Of a stretch of DNA of 64,000 bases, positions 3,727 through 57,388 are shown in pieces. Within the stretch, counting starts at the first letter, position 1, and the number at the start of each line of letters is the position of its first letter. Source of the DNA: Octopus vulgaris (lineage: Eukaryota); assembly GCA_951406725.2 (NCBI GenBank), contig OX597828.1:30504001-30568000 (forward strand). The letters run 5' to 3'. The notes beneath the pieces were generated by a model. It had not been told where the DNA came from. It ran no database searches and saw only the letters and a program-made list of their open reading frames with translations. The translations under genes were made by a program, and so were the position numbers.

Positions 3727-4077
3727 TTATCCGCTCAGTCGAAGTCGACTCTCGCTTACTCGTTGTATCAGTGTCCTCCAGTCAGTTCTATCCTGGGCCG
3801 CTTCTTTCAGATTGGCTATGTCCATTCCGGTATCATTCTTGATGGTGTCAAGCCAGCGGGTTCTTGGTCGGCCTCTTCCTCTCTTGCCATTGACCATTCC
3901 GAGCATGATGTCCTTCTCCAGGGATTTTCTCCGCATAATATGACCGAAATATGCCAATCTATGCTTGGTGATCCTAGCTTCTAGCGATATTTTCGGCCTG
4001 ATCTGCTTAAGAACTTCTCCATTGGTGAGCCTCGCTGTCCATAGAATCCGTAAAAGTCTTCTCCAACATTAATTCTC
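3727..4077 (-). mobile_element. RTE/BovB-like LINE 3' end
   Basis: CWRRLLRILWTAR...LAYFGHIMRRKSLEKDIMLGMVNGKRGRGRPRTRWLD...AAQDRTDWR (ORF 3727-3957). Confidence 0.9.
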
Positions 4078-7163: not shown

Positions 7164-8282
7164 ATGGAATGTCATGTTAAGCAAAACGAGCATTTTCTTC
7201 CCCTCCTTCTATTTGCTTTTAATCAAAGTTCTAAGGCCGCAAAAGCTGCTCGCGACATTTGTGCTGTGTATGGAGAGGGTGACATAGCAGGAAGAACCCC
7301 TCGTGATTGGTATGCCAAGTAAAAAATGGAAATTTTGACCTCAAAGACGCATCTCGGTCTGGCCGTGCAGTTGAGCTGGATGAAGAAAGATTAAATCAAC
7401 TTTTGCAAGAAAATTCTCATCAAATGACAAGGGAACTCTCAGAGAAAACGGAATGCTCCCACACTGCTATAAAGAAGTATCTTCACTCGATGGTAAATTT
7501 TCATAAGTATGGAGCATGGGTTCCGCATGCTTTAAGTGACAACAACAAAAATCAACGAACCACAATCTCCGCTGGTTTGTTTGCTCGTCACCGCTCAACT
7601 CATGGACACAAGCAACGATTTCTTTACCGAATCGTTACTGGCGACGAAAAAATGGCGCCTGTACATCAATATGAAGCAGCGTAAGGAATGGCTTAGCCCC
7701 GATAAACAAACGACACCGCACGTGAAACAAGATCTTCATCCGCGTAAAACGATATTGTGCGTATGATGGGACTGAGAAGGAATTATCCAATACGAATTGC
7801 TTGAATGGAACCAAACTGTCAACGCGGAACTCTATGTTCAACAGATGGAACGACTCAACAAGGCTATTCAAGAGAAAAGATCGAATCGCCATCATGGAGT
7901 TTTTCTGCTGCACGAAAACGGCCGCCCTCATATCGTCAATATGATCAAGGAAGCCATTCAAATGCATGAATGGGAAGTGCTGCCACATCCGCCGTACTCT
8001 CCTGATTTGGCACCAACGGATTTCCACTTCTTTCGATCTCTTTCAAATGCTATGCGCAGAATTTCGTTCAATACTGATGCAGCATTGAGAGATTGGTTGG
8101 ATCAATTTTTAGAGTCGAAATCGGGCGATTTCAACCAACGAGGTATTGAAAATCTTGTTGAACTTTGGGAAGAAGTTGTAAACAACGAGGGTGAATACAT
8201 TATCGATTAATTAGTTGTCACGTTTTATTAAACCTTTTAAAAGATTAAATAAAAAAAAAAAACTGCCGGAACTTAGTTGCCA

Positions 8283-11463: not shown

Positions 11464-11862
11464 AACCAAATTGAATTCTTCGCTGTTTCTTCTCTATGCG
11501 CTTCTTCATTATTTACTCTTCATATTGATGAAACTCCTTGTTTCAGATCGGTTTTATTACCAGATATCATAAATATTTTTGCATAGTTTTGTATATCAAT
11601 AGCTATATCATACAACATTGGAAGCAAAAACCGCAGTTAGATAGGATGCAGTCAATTTGCATTGAATTAATAACTAACAAATTTTGTAAGTCAATCGTTG
11701 TTGGTCAGTATTTCTCTATTTTCCGTTACATATATATTCATTCTCATTCTGAGATTTAATTATGCTTACTGTTCGTTTTTCGACATCAGTGACAGACGCC
11801 ATTAGAAAAACTTATATCTATTTGCAAAGGAGCCTTCACTTTCATCGCTACCTGGTGGTTAC

Positions 11863-11905
11863 TGCCCGTTGACGAGGGACAACAATCCCGAAACTAGTTC
11901 GAGCG
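11863..11905 (+). ncRNA. Minimal type I hammerhead ribozyme-like motif (C3U core variant)
   Basis: tgcccg-TTGACGA-ggga(caacaa)tccc-GAAA-ctag-TT-cgagcg: stems I and II pair, and stem III is palindromic. Confidence 0.7.
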
Positions 11906-12552
11906 TATCACTCAGGCTTGCGAGGAAGGGATGGCCTCCTTTGCAAATACTCCAAGGACACAGATATTGTGTCTAGAGCCAGCTAGAGACGAAGATCTCT
12001 TGGGGCTATAAAGCTACAGTAACACCCCCTCCCCAATGTGGTTAGCCATGATAAGATGGCTTCTATACTTTACAATATATATATATATATATATCATTTA
12101 TTTGAAGTGTATAAAAGTGCTACTAACTCAAATATATTCTTGAGAAATCTCAAACCACATATCATAACGAACTAAAGAAATTGAATAATAGACGAAACGC
12201 CAAAAGATTGTGAAGGCAGCATATAGAAAACGCAGACTGCAAACAACGGAAAACGAAAAACGGAAAACGGGGAACATAAACTTAAATTATAAAAATTAAA
12301 AAGTAAAATTGTAAGAGAGATGTCCTCCTTACACCTTAAATGATAAGTCTGGAAAGATATAAAGTCAGTCAAAATTAGCCGGAAATATCCAATACTTCAA
12401 AATATATTTATACATATGCGCGCAATCACCGAAAACGTCTAACCTGAAGTTCAATAAAGAGTTTAGGATTTAAGATCTACACTAAGTCTGCATTTATCCG
12501 ATTCATTCACCTCAGCTATGGATTTCTTAATTACATTCCTTTTACTTACCTG

Positions 12553-12857
12553 GAGTCACATGACCTTGTGGTTAGAGCAGCGGACTCGCAGTCGAGGGAT
12601 CGCCGGTTCGAATCTCAGACCGGACGATTTGTGTGTTTATGAGTGAAACACCTAAGCTCCACGCGGCTCCGGCAGAAGGTAATGGCGAAACTTCTGCTGA
12701 CTCTTTCGCCACAACTTTCTCTCACTCTTTCCTCCTGCATCTTGCACCTCACCTGCGATGGACCGGCGACCCGTCCAGGTGGGGAACCTATACGCCAAGA
12801 AACCGGGAAACCGGCCCTTATGAGCCAGGCATGGCTCGAGAAGGAACAAACAACAAG
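12553..12857 (+). mobile_element. Full-length tRNA-derived SINE with Meta/V-like central domain
   Basis: A box tgaccttgtggtt; B box ggttcgaatc; cctgcgatggaccggcgacccgtccagg domain; (CAA) tail; degenerate TSD ttttacttacctg (12540-12552) and ttttacctacatg (12860-12872). Confidence 0.8.
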
Positions 12858-13202
12858 TATTTTACCTACATGCGATGTTTCATTTTCTTTCAAAGACCAT
12901 ACATAACTCGCCAACTTAGCAGCTTTACTTTTGTCCCTATGTCGGAAGGAAGCTATGTGATTTGCCTAGCGATTTTTAAATTCACCTTATATAGGTTTTC
13001 TTATCAGTTGTATTATTATTTAAGGTTGCAGCAATATATGATAGATTTAGTCATACATCGTTGGTCAGTTAGAGAAGATCCTGTGTCACGACAGTTGCAA
13101 CTGGATTAAGGTTCTTGGTATTGACCACGTGTAATGATACTAGCAGCGATGTGATAGCTTCAGAGAACGCCTGTTAAATATTTTGCTGTATCCTTGATTG
13201 AC

Positions 13203-16920: not shown

Positions 16921-17820
<900 letters not shown>

Positions 17821-46103: not shown

Positions 46104-46502
46104 GCTATCAAAAAGCACAAACAAAATAGATATTGTTTTGTACAGACCATTAGCAGTAGAAATAACAGGAGATCATTTTCAAGACCTCAACAGAGATTAC
46201 CCACAAGAAACTGGACAAAAAACCGATCTAGATCTAGAAGTAAACCCAGATCATTTCTCCAGGTGGTTAAAAACAATGCTAACAAGAAATTGAAAAGTAG
46301 CATACATAATACCAAAAACAAGACAGAAAACATAACGAAACCAAGTAAAGTACCACAACCAAAACGCAAAATTCATCAAGAAAACATCAACAGGAATATA
46401 AATCATAACCAGAAAAAAATCCATTTTTTTACGTCAGGACAACAAACACCGGAGAAAGAAAAAATCCAAGAGGAAACATACCCCAAACAACTGAACGTAT
46501 AG
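46104..46502 (+). CDS. C-terminal part of a basic, R/S/K/N-rich PLE upstream ORF (5'-truncated)
   Basis: The frame of ORF 46263-46502 stays open back to the insertion junction: AIKKHKQNR...RSFSRPQQRLPTRNWTKNRSRSRSKPRSFLQVVKNN...KKIHFFTSG...*. Confidence 0.6.
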   Translation, partial: AIKKHKQNRYCFVQTISSRNNRRSFSRPQQRLPTRNWTKNRSRSRSKPRSFLQVVKNNANKKLKSSIHNTKNKTENITKPSKVPQPKRKIHQENINRNINHNQKKIHFFTSGQQTPEKEKIQEETYPKQLNV

Positions 46503-48736
46503 ATCCTAAAATAATTAATTTATCAAAAAGAGATCTTGACAATGATGAAATCCAACTTCTGTCAAAAGGACTGAAATTCACACCTACACCAACAGCCAAC
46601 CACCAAGAATTAAAGGAGGATATCCAAAAATTCTGTCGAAAATTACGACTTGTAGAATTCTTCGCTAACAAAAGTAATGAGATTGATGAATCCCTAGTAA
46701 GGAATAAATCAAATTTCACCCCACCAAAAGGAAGAAATAACTACCTTGACCAATACATTGATATCCTGTCTAAATTTCCCCTTAGACGCAATACCAATGT
46801 TAGGCCAAACATTAGCAAATCAGAGATGTCTGCATGTAAACGTATACAAAACGATCAAACAATAATAATTAAACAAGCAGATAAAGGTGGTGCAATTGTT
46901 ATTATGGATACCGAATACTATAAGGATTTGGTTGAAGACCAACTGAAGGATACAACCTTCTATTGTGAAATACCCGCAAATATAGACCACCACATCATGA
47001 AAAAGATCAACAACCTGATTTCAACACACCACAACTCACTTACGGATAATGAAAAAGACTACATCACCAATTTTGAACCAAAACCCAGCAACTTCTACGG
47101 CTTACCAAAAATACACAAATCAAAAAACATTCAACAGGCAGTAAAAGAACAAGAAAGTGAGTACATAAAATTATTACATCCAAAAGACCTAAAACTTAGA
47201 CCTATTATAGCTGGTCCAGCATGCCCTACACACCGTCTAAGCAATTTTATTGACATTGTTTTGAAACCACTATGTACTTACATACCAAGTTTCATCAGGG
47301 ATGACATCGACTTCCTGTCCCATCTTCCCAAAACAACAGAAACAAATTCAGTTTTGCTAAGTTTTGATGTGGTAAGCCTCTACACCAATATTCCACACGA
47401 TTTAGGAATAAAGGCGATTAAATACTGGTTAGAAAAACATAGAGAAGTGATTCCCAGCAGATTCACAGTGCCATTTATATTAGACACAGTCAAACTTATT
47501 CTAGAAAATAACACATTCTTCTTCAATGGAAAGAATTACATCCAAATTAGAGGCACGGCGATGGGAACGAGGTTTGCTCCCGTTTACGCCAACTCTGTAA
47601 TGGGATACTTAGAAGAACAACTCTACCAAGAGGTGGAGGTAAACTATGGCACTGGATTTAGAAAGTATATTGAAAAGGCATGGAAGAGATACCTAGACGA
47701 CTGTTTCATAATCTGGACAGAATCTCTAAATACTCTGGAAGAGTTCAATATCCTCCTGAACAACCTACACCCATCTCTCAAATTTACAAAGGAGATGAGT
47801 AGTACCAAATTACCATTCCTGGATATAATGGTAATTAAAAAAGACACCACCATCACCACAGATATATACTATAAACACACAGACACACATCAATACCTAA
47901 ATTTTAAGTCGTGCCATCCACCACATACAAAACGTAACATCCCATACTGCCTAGCCAGAAGAATTTGTACTATTGTAGAAGATGCAAATATCAGGAACAA
48001 ACGCCTAATAGAACTAAGAGAATTTTTGCTCAAACAAAAATACCCATCTCTACTTATAGAAAATGGCATACAGCGGGCTATAAAAATACCTATACAACAA
48101 CTTAGGACGACCCAAGGAAGAGGAAAACAAGAACAAGTCATACCATTCATAGTGACACACAACCCATGTCACCAGAATATCTTCAACATTGCCAAAGCAA
48201 ACCTTCCAATCATTGCCCAAAGTAATGAATTAAAAGACATAATCAAGGATCGAGCTATGGTGCTTAGTAAAAGACAGCCTAAAAACTTGAAAACATTACT
48301 AACAAAGGCAAAATTTGACCTCAGCAACAAAGACCAAACATTCACGGTATCTAAATGCAATGATAGCCGATGTGGCACATGCCAATTCATACATACCGGT
48401 CAATATATAAACACAAAAACCGGGAAAATATTCACAAACGCGAATATGAACTGCAAAAGCAGAAATTTAATTTACTGCATCAAATGCCCAAATTGTGAAG
48501 AAATATATGTAGGTCAGACGGGAAACGCACTATTAGAACGCTCACGTGTACACCGGCAACAGATTAGAGACCCAGAGGTCCGTCAGATACCTTTGAGTAA
48601 CCACCTAGCAACATGTGGTCGGAAAATATATATAATATTTCCATTCTACAAATTACACAGCCCAAGTGAAATCGAGAGGAAAATCAGAGAAAAGAATTTT
48701 ATTGATAAATTCGAACCCAAGCTAAATAAGCAATAA
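46409..48736 (+). CDS. PLE polyprotein: N-terminal domain, reverse transcriptase, Zn linker and GIY-YIG endonuclease (stop-to-stop frame; first ATG at 46826)
   Basis: The frame is open after TAA 46406-46408. Motifs: IINLS, LLSKGLKFTPTP, ADKG, FYGLPKIHK, RPII, DVVSLYTNIPH, GTAMGTRFAP, RYLDD, FLD, SCHP, CNDSRCGTC and LIYCIKCPNCEEIYVGQT. Confidence 0.95.
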   Translation, partial: PEKNPFFYVRTTNTGERKNPRGNIPQTTERIDPKIINLSKRDLDNDEIQLLSKGLKFTPTPTANHQELKEDIQKFCRKLRLVEFFANKSNEIDESLVRNKSNFTPPKGRNNYLDQYIDILSKFPLRRNTNVRPNISKSEMSACKRIQNDQTIIIKQADKGGAIVIMDTEYYKDLVEDQLKDTTFYCEIPANIDHHIMKKINNLISTHHNSLTDNEKDYITNFEPKPSNFYGLPKIHKSKNIQQAVKEQESEYIKLLHPKDLKLRPIIAGPACPTHRLSNFIDIVLKPLCTYIPSFIRDDIDFLSHLPKTTETNSVLLSFDVVSLYTNIPHDLGIKAIKYWLEKHREVIPSRFTVPFILDTVKLILENNTFFFNGKNYIQIRGTAMGTRFAPVYANSVMGYLEEQLYQEVEVNYGTGFRKYIEKAWKRYLDDCFIIWTESLNTLEEFNILLNNLHPSLKFTKEMSSTKLPFLDIMVIKKDTTITTDIYYKHTDTHQYLNFKSCHPPHTKRNIPYCLARRICTIVEDANIRNKRLIELREFLLKQKYPSLLIENGIQRAIKIPIQQLRTTQGRGKQEQVIPFIVTHNPCHQNIFNIAKANLPIIAQSNELKDIIKDRAMVLSKRQPKNLKTLLTKAKFDLSNKDQTFTVSKCNDSRCGTCQFIHTGQYINTKTGKIFTNANMNCKSRNLIYCIKCPNCEEIYVGQTGNALLERSRVHRQQIRDPEVRQIPLSNHLATCGRKIYIIFPFYKLHSPSEIERKIREKNFIDKFEPKLNKQ

Positions 48737-49150: not shown

Positions 49151-49211
49151 ACAGAATCACTCATCTTGCTACAGTCAAAAATTGTGAAGCATGACTGTCA
49201 ACACTACTACA

Positions 49212-49256
49212 TGAACCCGAAGATTGCAGAATTCAATGCATGAAAGTACTAGTTCA
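49212..49256 (+). ncRNA. Minimal type I hammerhead ribozyme (U4C core variant) of the PLE
   Basis: tgaac-CCGAAGA-t-tgca(gaattcaa)tgca-t-GAAA-gtac-TA-gttca: perfect 5-bp stem I and palindromic stem III. Confidence 0.8.
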
Positions 49257-49433
49257 ATCAGAATGAATATTTAACATTCTACTATTTCATTTTATTTTAT
49301 TCAATTATAATATATTATCTTATAATATATCATTATAAGACTGTAAATAAAACGTGAAAATCAGACAAGGTTGGAATTCTTTTTATTAATATATTCTTCT
49401 ATACACAATCACACACACCCATATATATATATA

Positions 49434-52804: not shown

Positions 52805-53093
52805 ATGTAAGAATTTTTTGAGTAATAAGATAAAAACCCAATGTTGTGTAGATAATCGAACATTTATAGATAGAAGTTCTTACAGCTGTTTCCAGGATAT
52901 TTATTAATTATATCCATTCATCGGAGACGGTGTGAGAAGATGGTTAAGTAATACTTAATTTAGATAGGATACAAAATAGAGAGTGAGGTGGAGGAAAGAA
53001 AATAGATGTGATATATGTAGGCGTATTGAAGTTGTAGATCCATTTTTTAGGCAGAATGGAATATATGTAAGATTCCAATACCTTATGAGTAAA

Positions 53094-53156
<63 letters not shown>

Positions 53157-54960
53157 TTAGAGAGAGGTGTTGTCTATATAGAATACACTTCGAAGTACTC
53201 AAGAGATTTGAACTTCAGCTGGTAGATAAGTAAATGTAATGAGAAGCAAGTTCGGTAAGTCGATTTACACCGAATATTAAATAGATTCAATAGAAAAACT
53301 ATACATGTGTATTGAAATAGAATAATCCGACGTACAGAATATAAATGATATGAGGAGTTAAATGTGTAGATTTTACGAGCCCAGTAGCTGTTTGTGGGGG
53401 GCTCGGTGGTCCGGAATAATGATAATTACTTGGATCCATCACCAGATAACACTGCCTCTCTTTCAGGGGAGAAAGTTATATTTGAGAATTTTATATTTGA
53501 GGATTTGACAGGATGGAGTTTAGAGAAAGAATGATTTTGTGGGGAATTGTGTTAAGAGGGGGAGTTGAGGGTGTTTAGATAGAGAGTATTGGGAGGAGAA
53601 AATAGATTTCAGGGTTAGGGTTAATAACGAGGCTAGTGATAGTAGTAGATGCGGAAGTTGGGAGGAAGAGAGAAGGGTTGTTCTAGTAGTATGTGAGAGA
53701 TAACTTTGTAATAGATTGTATGGCTGTTGTAGAGTTAAAGATTGAGATAGTGAAAAGGGTTTATTATTGATTGGGCAAAATGATTTGTCTTGTTCAGTAG
53801 CTAAAGGGGGGCGGGGTGGGTGTGCTAAGTGGGGAAGTGGCTGATTTGAAGATTTGAAAGAAATTTGAGATGTGGGTATGATAAGAAATTAGATGATGGG
53901 GGTCGGGTGGTTAGTTGGCTGCAAGGCTGACTTTCGTTTAGATTAAGGTTTTCTCGGTATGGAAACCTATAAAATCATACAGATTTAGCAAAGTGCATGA
54001 AAGTTAAGTAGTATCTATTGAGTAATGAGGAATTGGGAATGCGAAGAATAATGATTCTTTTAGACTTAACTTACACTTACCGATATTTACATTGTATGGG
54101 GGAACTTCACTTACTATGGACCAGAATAGGGTGTATAGGATAGTTTGCCATTTGAGATTATGTATGTATTTTGCTAAAGTGGTAGATATTTTAGACTTAT
54201 GGATTAGTGAAAGAGTAGCAGCGCTTGAAATTTTGCGGGATCTTATAACACGTCACCTGTACATCACAGAAGCATGCCAGGGGGCATCATTTACATGCCC
54301 GACAGCTGCAATTTTTTTTTACCGGCTTCATGTTGGGGTTTACTACTAGCGAGCTTTATTGGTTTCTTGCTACTGAGGAGAACCTAAATTATTATTTGTA
54401 TTTGTATTGGAGTTGGATGTGGTATCGGAGGAAGTATTTGCTACCGCATAGGCAGTATTGCAGGATCTTGGTTTCAGTTTGGTCTCATTTAATTCAGGCG
54501 GGTTATTAAGGATTGTGTTATTGCTAGTACGTGGACTAACTTGGGGTGCAGTGTGGGAGTTTAGGTGTTCAGAGGACTGATGCTGGAGTTTGTGTGTTTT
54601 CGAGGAGGCGATTATGGATCCTAAATTAGGTGTGGTAGAGTAGAAGATTTTCACGGACGATTTGTTAAAGATGAGATAGTATTTATGTTGTATTGGAAAA
54701 TTAGATTTTAGAAATTTAAACAAGAATTTAGGTACAGATTTCACTTGGAGATAGAAGGGCGATGCAAACCATGCTATTCTAGGCTTCTTGGCTTTAGATT
54801 GTTTAGTGTGTAGTTGTAGTGGTATGATGTGAAGGGGGGTGCTTGTAGTTGTTATAGGCTCGGGGTGGCCACTCGTGTAGTCGAGTACGTTGTGTAAGGT
54901 TTTTTTTTGTGGAGTCGTTGGATTGGTGTAGAGTGAAAGCAGTGTCCGTAGTATTGCAGA
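52805..54960 (-). mobile_element. Degenerate Penelope-like element (linker, GIY-YIG C-terminus, long 3' region and hammerhead)
   Basis: IAWFASPFYLQVKSVPKFL...NFPIQHKYYLIFNKSSVKIFYSTTPNLGSIIAS; STTLAKYIHNLK...WSIVSEVPPYNVNIGKCKLSLKE. Confidence 0.8.
52878..52927 (-). ncRNA. Type I hammerhead ribozyme motif (U4C core variant)
   Basis: tct-CCGATGA-at-ggatat(aattaataa)atatcc-tg-GAAA-cagctg-TA-aga; palindromic stem III. Confidence 0.78.
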
Positions 54961-57388
54961 AGAGATATGCTATTTCAGTTTTAAGCTGGAAGTTGGGGTT
55001 ACAATAGATTTTTTTCGCGGAAGCTGCTTATTTGGAGAGCCTGATTGCAATAAGGTGCGTGACTGTTAAAAATGTCTTCGTTAGCGATAAATATATGGAG
55101 GGAGTAATCTACTGTACTCTACAAATACGTGACCTTTATAAACAAATCGTCTGAGCTTGTTGTTCCGCAAAAAAGGGATAGAAACCTCGTCTGCTGTAAA
55201 CGACAGGAGCGTCTACCATAATTGATAGATATAACTATTTGCACACATGGGCACACACACAAACACACACACGCACACACGCATGCATTCGCGCACACAT
55301 ACATACAGGTACACACTCATGATATTCCCAGTGATGTATACCGATATGTGTTATCTGGATTGGAACTGTCATTTCCGCGTTCTTTTTACAAAATGTCACA
55401 ACTTGTTAGGAGAGTTCTCGTTCTGATGGTTAATAATGCATTTCAACTTCTTGAACGCTTGATATTTACCACTCACCTCAGAAAGCTACAAATCATTCGC
55501 TTTCTATACTATTACTAAATTTAATGTTCTTTCATGCACAATACCTATTGTCACACAAATGCGCAGTAGTACTCGGTTTTTAGTTTCACATTATAGGGAG
55601 TATGATGCAATATATAATTCAAACACCACTGTAGGCAGTTTGACCCAAAATATAATTGCTGTTAGGGTAAACAGATTAATGGTGCTTTGAAGCATGTAAA
55701 GTGTTATGGATGTGAATATTAATATATTGACGGCACTGAGGACATCTTGAAGGCAGCATATTAGTAATATTCAATAACAAATGGAACGACAAAAATGAAA
55801 TACATAGCCTCAGCAACAGAAATCTGTCACCGCATTTAACTCTGTTTTAAACATTTGATATTCTCTACAAGCTTTACTGAACATAGTGGGGATTCGGCTA
55901 TTAGTATAATTGAAGTGAATGTTGTATTTAAAACAACATATACAATATTTTGAGTATTATTTAAAAAGGGTGTAGAAGTCATCCTCTAAGCCGTATCTTT
56001 AAAATAATGATGTATTTACAAAATCCTTAAATATGAAATAAATCTTTACAAAATATTACTTTTGCAGATTGCAATAATAAATATTAATATTTTGAGTAAG
56101 GGTCCTGTAATATATAAATATAATCGAGTCTCATAAAGTTAAAACGATGCTGAACGGGAGTGGTTGATGGTTAAATATTCTTCAGGAATTTGTCCTTGTT
56201 AATCGATTAAAAGCAAGGGAATAGTAATATATGATTGTTGAGTGTTCAATAAATTATGTTGCTTTGACAATAAATGATGGATGACGACAGTAAAGAAAAT
56301 ATTTTTGCAAAGAATATATTGCTGAAATAACTCATTAAACAAATCCTTACGGGCAATTATCGGAAAGCAGGAACTTTTAAGTGGAATTTAACGACCATAA
56401 ACGATACATTCCGAAGTAAAATGAAAATTCAGAATAATTGCATTGTAATAACAGATAGAAATTGTCTTTGTTCCTGAAGTGTAATGACCATTAAGTTGGT
56501 GTTTCTAATTAAATTTATATTATTAATGTTTTACATGTATTTTTTTTCATATTATATCCTACTCTGTTTCAACGAACAATAATTAATCAAAGCGAAAATT
56601 TAGCTATAAACGCAGTAACGATAACAATATTTAATATAGAATAAATAGTAGCAAGCATTATAATATAATTAACTGAATATAATTATTCGAAATTCCCTAA
56701 AGATATTATAAAAATTTAGTTTGCAAAATGCTTCCAAGCACGTATACATATACATAATAAACAGCATATATGGATAATATCAATGTTAAGCACCTCATGT
56801 GTATTGATATTTTGATATTGGTTAGCTGCAGGTCAACCCTGATCACAAGGAACAAAGATCAAATAAATTCCACCTTTTTCAATAAAGTGTAAGTCGGTTT
56901 ACATTATCCAATGTATGTTTTCTATTTTACGACAGGAGTGCATAAGGTGAAAAAAATAGAATTTTAATTAATTGCAACACACGCTCATACACACATATGT
57001 AAGTATGTATTTATCATAGCTTCCTTCTTTAAGTATGTTAAAACCCACTTATCAATTTATCGCTCATTCAAAATATACCCTTGTTTAAGTCAAGATCCAA
57101 GAGTTATTCCTTTCTCGTGTGCTATTTAGTTTTACATTGATCAGGTTTATTCCACAAGATCGTTTAATATTTAATCCCCTTATGGTCGTCCGAGGTCCGG
57201 TCCACTCTCTGATGGATGTCGCACATTATTTACCTTCTTGAATCGAAGTAGACAAATACACTCACGTACACAAACGCGTATCTACACGCACGCGCACACA
57301 CAGGCACACTTACACACTGATGAACACACAAAAAAAAATCACTCACACACACATCGTTATAACTTGAGAGTATGGAAAAGCACATACA

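What the first reader, a model, noticed from the sequence alone, without database searches (positions are those of the whole stretch)
11819..12062. Hammerhead capping a ~130-nt rod-like hairpin, followed by three small hairpins: retrozyme-like non-coding element
Seen: stem I of the HHR (11863-11905) extends into a ~50-bp imperfect helix closed by a perfect 14-bp pair, tatttgcaaaggag (11819-11832) with ctcctttgcaaata (11936-11949). It is followed by gacaca/tgtgtc, agaga/tctct and agccat/atggct hairpins. This ~250-nt GC-richer island has no ORF and no PLE coding sequence nearby. Established: animal retrozymes are non-autonomous units of a few hundred nucleotides with type I HHRs that give circular RNAs. 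Inference: this is a monomer of such an element. This copy has C3U and may be dead.
Basis: partly seen in the sequence, partly recalled or inferred. Interest (0 to 1): 0.72.

Follow-up and report, generated by a model that had tools for sequence, protein, structure and literature searches.

The report
Wobble-core retrozyme with Penelope insertion footprint
This is one shortened copy of a young 357-base jumping repeat with hundreds of copies, whose predicted self-cutting RNA carries the same odd core letters in nearly every copy, and whose insertion ends show a pattern that points to a Penelope-type enzyme as the likely copier.

Summary
The structure is real (fold z = -4.6; weak Rfam HH9 match). 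It is larger than reported: window 11737-12074 is a 5'-truncated copy (positions 19-357) of a dispersed 357-bp non-coding family with about 300 hammerhead-bearing copies, one of several related subfamilies. It is not a MITE.

U3 is not decay of this copy: 102 of 104 segments have U3 and 110 of 111 have U17. A sister subfamily has the Watson-Crick pair U3-A8; others have C3-G8. Hammerhead stems covary across subfamilies.

Insertions look Penelope-made: partial tandems, two fixed 3' ends about 50 nt apart, and AT/TA targets. In 31 of 31 two-armed loci, one arm uses each end; 8 of 10 scorable ones have a 12-15-bp target duplication. Penelope coding DNA does lie nearby, but no donor sharing DNA with the unit was found. 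Cleavage and circular RNA are untested.

Verdict: a variant of the known animal non-LTR retrozymes. This scan already noted Penelope-mobilised retrozymes elsewhere in this genome and a wobble-core family in another genome.

The parts
11737..12074 (+). 5'-truncated single-arm copy of the 357-bp unit (unit positions 19-357); 4 substitutions and 1 deletion against the family majority
11766..11768 (+). position of the family's second fixed 3' end (E2, unit 48-50, end of the 'tail'); internal in this copy
11819..11949 (+). rod-like extension of stem I; outer helix 11819-11832 with 11936-11949
11855..11911 (+). type I hammerhead with extended stem I and internal loop (HH9-like layout)
11869..11875 (+). 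core box 1, UUGACGA: U3 (11869) opposite G8 (11874), a wobble instead of C3-G8; family-wide
11876..11889 (+). stem II, 4 bp, loop CAACAA
11890..11899 (+). GAAA, palindromic stem III ACUAGU, U17; predicted cleavage after 11899
11957..11973 (+). hairpin 1, conserved across subfamilies
11985..12000 (+). hairpin 2, 3 of 5 pairs with a change on both sides
12044..12061 (+). hairpin 3, just before the first fixed 3' end (E1, 12074)
12075..12095 (.). TA microsatellite at the 3' junction (target site); no clear target duplication for this copy

Best explanation
This is a 5'-truncated copy of a young, protein-less 357-bp repeat that carries a predicted type I hammerhead and is likely copied into AT-rich DNA by the protein of a Penelope-like element (PLE), i.e. 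an animal non-LTR retrozyme. Shown: unit size, copy structure, two fixed 3' ends, the one-end-per-arm rule, target duplications in two-armed copies, the family-wide U3/G8/U17 core and stem covariation. Inferred mechanism: read-through RNA over tandem units is cut, probably slowly and as a dimer through the palindromic stem III, and is ligated to a 357-nt circle. A PLE protein nicks both strands about 12-13 bp apart and starts reverse transcription inside the RNA, at E1 from one strand and at E2 from the other. If both arms extend, the result is an inverted two-armed insertion with a target duplication; if one arm survives, the result is a single truncated arm like this one. The U3-G8 wobble is read as a weakened but tolerated core, not a dead one (about 55% within this explanation).
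For: Family: 77 matches among the 40 best of 1775 candidate places; 126 exact core matches; 362 relaxed matches against 8 in the control, 83 of the 100 listed being this family by my count. Architecture over 72 de-duplicated loci: 37 single-arm (25 E1, 10 E2, 2 other) and 35 multi-arm; 31 of the 35 have defined ends on both arms, and all 31 pair one E1 with one E2 (p 4.7e-10 against a 50% expectation). 50 of 101 3' ends are followed by TA repeats. A shared 12-15-bp flank occurs in 8 of 10 non-microsatellite two-arm loci (control 0 of 90), but in only 2 of 32 other loci. This matches the PLE tail, inverted copies and two internal RT start sites (PMC11167929; PMC8557442). Copies within one locus share rare variants at 0.40 per 100 sites against 0.03 between loci; sister family B 0.35 against 0.006. 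Arms reach 896 nt, and only 1 of 109 5' truncations lies at the cut site. Hammerhead covariation over 23 lineages: 90.5% of cells paired, 8 of 19 pairs changed on both sides, slid controls 18-51%. Position 3/8 left free in a sister context: U-A 55, U-G 18, U-U 1, G-A 1 of 75 (my count). Long open PLE frames exist in the genome.
Against: No autonomous PLE sharing DNA with the unit was found among about 100 PLE-type loci examined; searches scored only 150 of 6136 and 150 of 7285 candidates. No cleavage, transcript or circle was shown. Shared variants within arrays could also come from homogeneous source arrays, template jumps or gene conversion. PLE insertion in vitro did not need hammerhead cleavage (PMC11167929), so amplification does not prove an active ribozyme. 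The compensatory changes on this family's long branch cannot be ordered relative to the change at position 8. Core columns in many sister lineages were fixed by my search patterns. The Rfam score is below the gathering cut-off. Twenty of the 72 loci were hand-picked for being multi-copy.
Confidence: 0.78

Rival explanations
1. Same PLE-dependent element, but the hammerhead of this subfamily is catalytically dead (U3-G8 plus U17). It spreads from uncleaved read-through RNA of partial tandems; the fold is kept for protein binding or is simply inherited.
For: Two core departures are fixed. HHR mutants do not affect PLE insertion in vitro (PMC11167929). No pile-up of truncations at the cut site. 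Many sister lineages also have damaged-looking cores (U4C, C10.1-A11.1). The tree favours U3-A8 as the ancestral pool, so G8 may be a late loss.
Against: The remaining core positions and the stem III palindrome are unchanged over 24% divergence from the U3-A8 subfamily. U3-G8 recurs in subfamilies D and E, which went on amplifying, with compensatory stem I changes in D. Rare variants are shared across units of one array.
Confidence: 0.35
2. The unit is only the terminal repeat (pLTR) of an autonomous PLE, left as truncated copies.
For: Same footprint as PLE insertions; published link between pLTRs and retrozymes (10.64898/2026.07.22.740005).
Against: Unit ends join unit starts head to tail with no ORF between, up to 2.5 units here and more than 4 in family B. 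No element-linked upstream sequence and no DNA match to sampled PLEs.
Confidence: 0.08
3. A MITE or other DNA transposon whose terminal inverted repeats are the rod arms.
For: A 14-bp inverted pair in this copy.
Against: The arms are internal to the unit; copies have variable 5' ends and fixed 3' ends; the perfect pair is a private deletion; core and stems are conserved and covary.
Confidence: 0.01
4. A satellite spread by local unequal exchange after a single PLE-derived seeding.
For: Tandem units exist; local amplification is the scenario discussed in 10.64898/2026.07.22.740005 (passage).
Against: Copies are dispersed over most large contigs in short arrays with truncated 5' ends, fixed 3' ends, inverted arms and target duplications.
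Confidence: 0.03

Closest known systems
Animal non-LTR retrozymes (Cervera and de la Pena 2020, PMC7229834; mussel 350-390-bp repeats, axolotl Rtz_331/353)
   Same: Non-coding unit of about 350 bp, one type I hammerhead per unit, short palindromic helix III, tandem copies, highly paired predicted circle (z -4.4), target duplications longer than 4 bp, PLEs in the same genome.
   Different: Mostly 1-2.5 units per insertion; family-wide U3-G8 and U17; two fixed 3' ends and inverted arms, not described in the two parts of that paper I read; circular RNA not shown here.
EN+ Penelope-like elements (Poseidon PAc, PMC11167929; structure in PMC8557442)
   Same: Partial tandems, 5' truncation, inverted copy, tail at one end, AT-rich or TA targets, hammerhead upstream of the RT start region.
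   Different: No ORF; tail about 48-50 nt against 30-40 nt; hammerhead is of the canonical layout with 4-bp stem II and extended stem I, not the minimal PLE type; no matching autonomous partner found.
Natural hammerhead core variants (U3-A8 in Schistosoma PLEs, PMC4209133; U3-A8 and U10.1-U11.1 in PMC3088659; a U3/G8 variant from halophiles quoted in PMC7151607)
   Same: Changes at the 3-8 pair.
   Different: Here C-G, U-A and U-G occur in separate amplifying subfamilies of one element superfamily in one genome, each with many copies.

Membership tests
Type I hammerhead ribozyme | Three helices round the core, with covariation | tested here: met
Type I hammerhead ribozyme | Consensus core with a Watson-Crick 3-8 pair | tested here: not met
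   U3 with G8 in the family; other core positions match; H17 = U is allowed by the H17 rule quoted in PMC7151607
Type I hammerhead ribozyme | Rfam gathering score | tested here: not met
   HH9 27.3 of 52 bits; the canonical sister B also falls short, Hammerhead_1 32.2 of 34
Type I hammerhead ribozyme | Self-cleavage after N17 | not testable with these tools
   needs an assay
Non-LTR retrozyme | Non-coding unit of 150-450 bp with one type I hammerhead motif | tested here: met
   357 bp; no ORF of 110 aa or more over the element
Non-LTR retrozyme | Dispersed copies and tandem units with consecutive hammerheads | tested here: met
   e.g. L009, L034, L054, L223; this copy itself is a monomer
Non-LTR retrozyme | No LTR/PBS/PPT layout; target duplications longer than 4 bp | tested here: met
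   variable 5' ends; 12-15-bp duplications in 8 of 10 two-arm loci; PBS and PPT not searched separately
Non-LTR retrozyme | Expressed as circular RNA | not testable with these tools
   only contigs of runs guessed to be RNA were available
PLE-mobilised element | Partial tandem, inverted 5'-truncated copy, tail at one end, AT-rich target | tested here: met
PLE-mobilised element | Sequence shared with an autonomous PLE partner | tested here: inconclusive
   none in sampled loci; sampling was partial
Autonomous PLE | RT + GIY-YIG ORF inside the unit | tested here: not met
MITE | Terminal inverted repeats at fixed ends | tested here: not met

The most novel reading that the evidence does not exclude
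A retrozyme superfamily in which the catalytic 3-8 pair has moved C-G to U-A to U-G while each state kept amplifying, because a slow, dimer- or protein-assisted ribozyme suits the cycle; and in which one PLE complex copies a single RNA circle from both cut strands at two dedicated start sites. That would explain the PLE tail, the inverted copy and the target duplication in one rule, and make these 357-nt RNAs minimal substrates for testing it.
Probability: 0.35. Interest if true: 0.72.

Novelty: new variant of a known kind. Interest (0 to 1): 0.52.

Why it matters
How animal retrozymes are inserted, and why PLE insertions have a tail at one end and an inverted copy, are mostly inferred. A small, young family with hundreds of copies gives countable rules: one start site per arm (31 of 31) and a target duplication almost only when both arms are present. 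These can be tested in vitro with a 357-nt RNA. The set of natural cores (C3-G8, U3-A8, U3-G8, U4C, weak 10.1-11.1 pairs) is a ready series for asking how much cleavage such an element needs. The single copy in the window is ordinary within its family.

Tried and rejected
Rfam at gathering score: nothing in the window. tRNA scan: none. Search for an autonomous partner: GIY-YIG and Hydra-like protein searches, then BLASTN of units A, B and C against the fetched PLE loci; the only hits were separate insertions of sister units (L158, L175, L201). A 1382-bp repeat holding a U3 hammerhead (L293) looked like a longer element but is a local tandem duplication with host flanks. Empty-site test on four DNA-like runs: no joint skipping the element was listed; contigs were short and the flanks repetitive, so no conclusion. 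RNA: no RNA holder listed on record; contigs of four runs guessed to be RNA cover parts of the unit, several with host flanks, and cannot show ends or circles; not used as evidence either way. Target duplication for the window copy: only a trivial TA overlap. Kinetic data for U3-G8: the two papers wanted (PMC1986816, PMC2271363) are not held, and searches gave no measurement; that the wobble lowers activity is recalled. Direction of change at position 8 is not settled: AU rejects one U3-A8 clade (p 0.006) and does not reject one U3-G8 clade (p 0.15) or one U3 clade (p 0.65); 13 of 55 loci were left out as too truncated, the groups were named after an earlier tree, and this family sits on a long branch.

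Full report
Observation. The hammerhead-like motif, the rod and the three hairpins are in the sequence as described. The 281-nt region folds at -92.9 kcal/mol, z -4.61, with 0 of 200 shuffles as low; about 42 pairs join 11819-11868 to 11900-11949. Rfam gives nothing at gathering score but aligns 11851-11921 to HH9 over the whole model (27.3 bits, cut-off 52, E 3.5e-4). The alignment places U at 3, G at 8, a 4-bp stem II, a palindromic stem III and U at 17.

The element. The genome (G000, 2.8 Gb) holds many copies at 94-99% identity (only the 40 best of 1775 candidates were scored). Head-to-tail copies define a 357-bp unit, and the window holds positions 19-357 at 11737-12074. It differs from the family majority by 4 substitutions and one deleted C; that deletion creates the 'perfect' 14-bp helix, and only one change (11863) touches the hammerhead stems. 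An exact 35-base core pattern with position 3 free has 126 matches; of the 100 listed, 99 have T, 1 has A and none has C. A relaxed pattern has 362 matches against 8 in the control, and 83 of the 100 listed are this family by my count, so roughly 300 copies. Over 72 de-duplicated loci (8 duplicates dropped; 20 hand-picked as multi-copy), U3 is in 102 of 104 segments, G8 in 103 of 104 and U17 in 110 of 111. The odd core therefore predates the amplification. Contigs of runs from three further organism codes also cover the unit. That the host is an octopus-like animal is my inference from genome make-up, not a tool result.

How copies are built. 5' ends are scattered; 3' ends fall at two sites, E1 (unit end) and E2 (about 48-50 nt further on). 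Of 72 loci, 37 are single-armed (25 E1, 10 E2, 2 other) and 35 have an inverted arm. Four of the 35 have an inner piece without a defined end and were set aside; in all the other 31, one arm ends at E1 and the other at E2 (p 4.7e-10 against 50%). Family B shows the same by reading (16 clear loci, 2 complex). Fifty of 101 ends are followed by TA repeats, and the first 10 flanking bases are 90% A+T. Among loci without microsatellite flanks, 8 of 10 two-arm loci have a 12-15-bp shared flank (0 of 90 mismatched controls), against 2 of 32 other loci. PLEs are described with partial tandems, an inverted truncated copy and a 30-40-bp tail often at one end only (PMC8557442, passages and section 11). 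The purified anole PLE protein cuts and extends both strands of AT-rich DNA, starts inside the RNA at two sites that bound the tail, and does not need hammerhead cleavage to insert (PMC11167929, parts 1-2 of 4). The window copy is a single E1 arm ending in (TA)n.

Circle or linear template. Copies within a locus differ by 2.2% against 3.3% between loci and share rare variants 14 times more often (0.40 against 0.03 per 100 sites; 22 of 74 pairs); in B 0.35 against 0.006. Arms reach 896 nt here, and only 1 of 109 5' truncations lies within unit positions 178-186 round the cut site. This fits repeated copying of one monomer, as from a circle, but homogeneous source arrays, template jumps or conversion are not excluded. 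The natural unit folds well as a circle (z -4.4; B z -6.9; 60 shuffles). No usable RNA evidence was available.

The superfamily and its cores. Related units of about 353-357 bp are more numerous: 2577 matches to a sister hammerhead pattern against 1 control. Over 23 lineages (alignment A1) the hammerhead helices are 90.5% paired, with 8 of 19 pairs changed on both sides; slid controls give 18-51%. The rod end and hairpins are 85.9% paired, 9 of 30 pairs changed on both sides, and the inner rod is the weakest part at 68.8%. The tool warns that relatedness inflates the shuffle test, and my patterns fixed several core columns. With positions 3, 4, 7 and 8 free in one sister context, all 75 matches gave U-A 55, U-G 18, U-U 1, G-A 1 (counted by hand). 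With positions 3 and 8 masked, the 17 non-C3 rows formed one side of a branch (89/90) in the first tree. In a longer alignment one C3 row fell inside, one U3 clade was not rejected, one U3-A8 clade was rejected (p 0.006) and one U3-G8 clade was not (p 0.15). The favoured order is C-G, then U-A, then U-G, but it is not secure. This family is 24% from the U3-A8 subfamily and differs on both sides of two stem II pairs and one pair each of hairpins 1 and 2, keeps a palindromic stem III and keeps the other core bases. Subfamily D keeps U3-G8 through further compensatory stem I changes. Weak-looking cores are common: the 10.1-11.1 pair is non-standard in 15 of 23 lineages and 4 have C4.

Surroundings and partner. 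An old repeat at 12125-12552 and 12868-13200 (minus strand, 75-80% to its relatives), split by a SINE-like insert, belongs to a family whose relatives match the endonuclease end of a Hydra-like PLE (tblastn E down to 4e-16) and carry their own hammerhead. A 775-codon open frame with RT and GIY-YIG matches lies at 46409-48736. Long PLE frames of two types occur genome-wide (781 and 806 codons; clade names from motifs in PMC8557442 or recalled). None of the sampled PLEs shares DNA with the unit, so the partner is unnamed.

Comparison with what is known. It works like, and meets the testable features of, the animal non-LTR retrozymes (PMC7229834, parts 2-3 of 6); the circular RNA is untested. A PLE origin has been argued from distribution and phylogeny (10.64898/2026.07.22.740005, part 1 of 5 and passages; 'tail' and 'target site' do not occur in its main text; its supplements are closed). 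U3-A8 is known (PMC4209133, parts 1-2 of 4; PMC3088659 section 8), and a natural U3/G8 core is quoted in PMC7151607 (passages). Searches listed no paper on cephalopod retrozymes, a recent octopus repeat annotation has no 'ribozyme' or 'retrozyme' in its main text (PMC13282606, passages), and searches listed none on a U3-G8 retrozyme or the one-end-per-arm rule; the library lacks most subscription papers. Earlier notes of this scan describe Penelope-type two-armed retrozymes in this genome and a wobble-core family in another genome; none matched this sequence. I had the footprint and the U3 result before those look-ups, the one-end count was run, and the notes are not counted as support.

Verdict. 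A real, ordinary copy of a family that is a new variant of a known kind. PLE-dependent non-autonomous element: about 0.9. Ribozyme still weakly active in the cycle: about 0.55. Interest 0.52.

Noticed in passing
window 46409-48736 (+), 3' region to about 49420: PLE with a 775-codon open RT + GIY-YIG frame; a hammerhead-like motif with C at position 4 and a palindromic stem III near 49210-49260 (read by eye).
   Followed up: partly
window about 52830-55085 (-): Decayed Hydra-like PLE with a minimal hammerhead at about 52924, also C at position 4.
   Followed up: partly
window 12125-13200 (-), with insert 12551-12860 (+): Old PLE 3' end directly beside the element, split by a SINE-like repeat (tRNA-like head recalled; ARAGORN finds no tRNA).
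   Followed up: partly
L091, L093-L099, L101-L104, L106, L108-L110: About 60 bp of the unit's 3' end sits inside a different, very abundant element with a Helitron-like end (label recalled); the shared 21-mer has 6255 matches. Looks like capture of a retrozyme piece.
   Followed up: no
L112-L118: 119-bp tandem array made of a sister unit's 3' end, tail and a TA run.
   Followed up: no
G000:C29:13363457 and 13363813: Two tandem units 356 bp apart from different subfamilies (U3-A8 and U3-G8): a chimeric array, perhaps a template switch.
   Followed up: no
L283, L303: Subfamily E: U3-G8 plus U10.1-U11.1 and a non-palindromic stem III, in 357-bp trimers.
   Followed up: partly
L062-L090, L243-L255: Subfamily B (353 bp) has a fully canonical core, is the youngest seen (1.6% between loci) and had the longest arrays among those fetched (more than 4 units); a like-for-like test of array length against core state was not done.
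   Followed up: partly
L293: Near-identical 1382-bp local tandem duplication (4 hammerhead copies) holding a truncated subfamily D copy and a LINE fragment.
   Followed up: partly
window 7307-8210, 3727-4068, 16926-17552: Mariner-like transposase pieces and LINE RT fragments, by eye from the ORF list.
   Followed up: no
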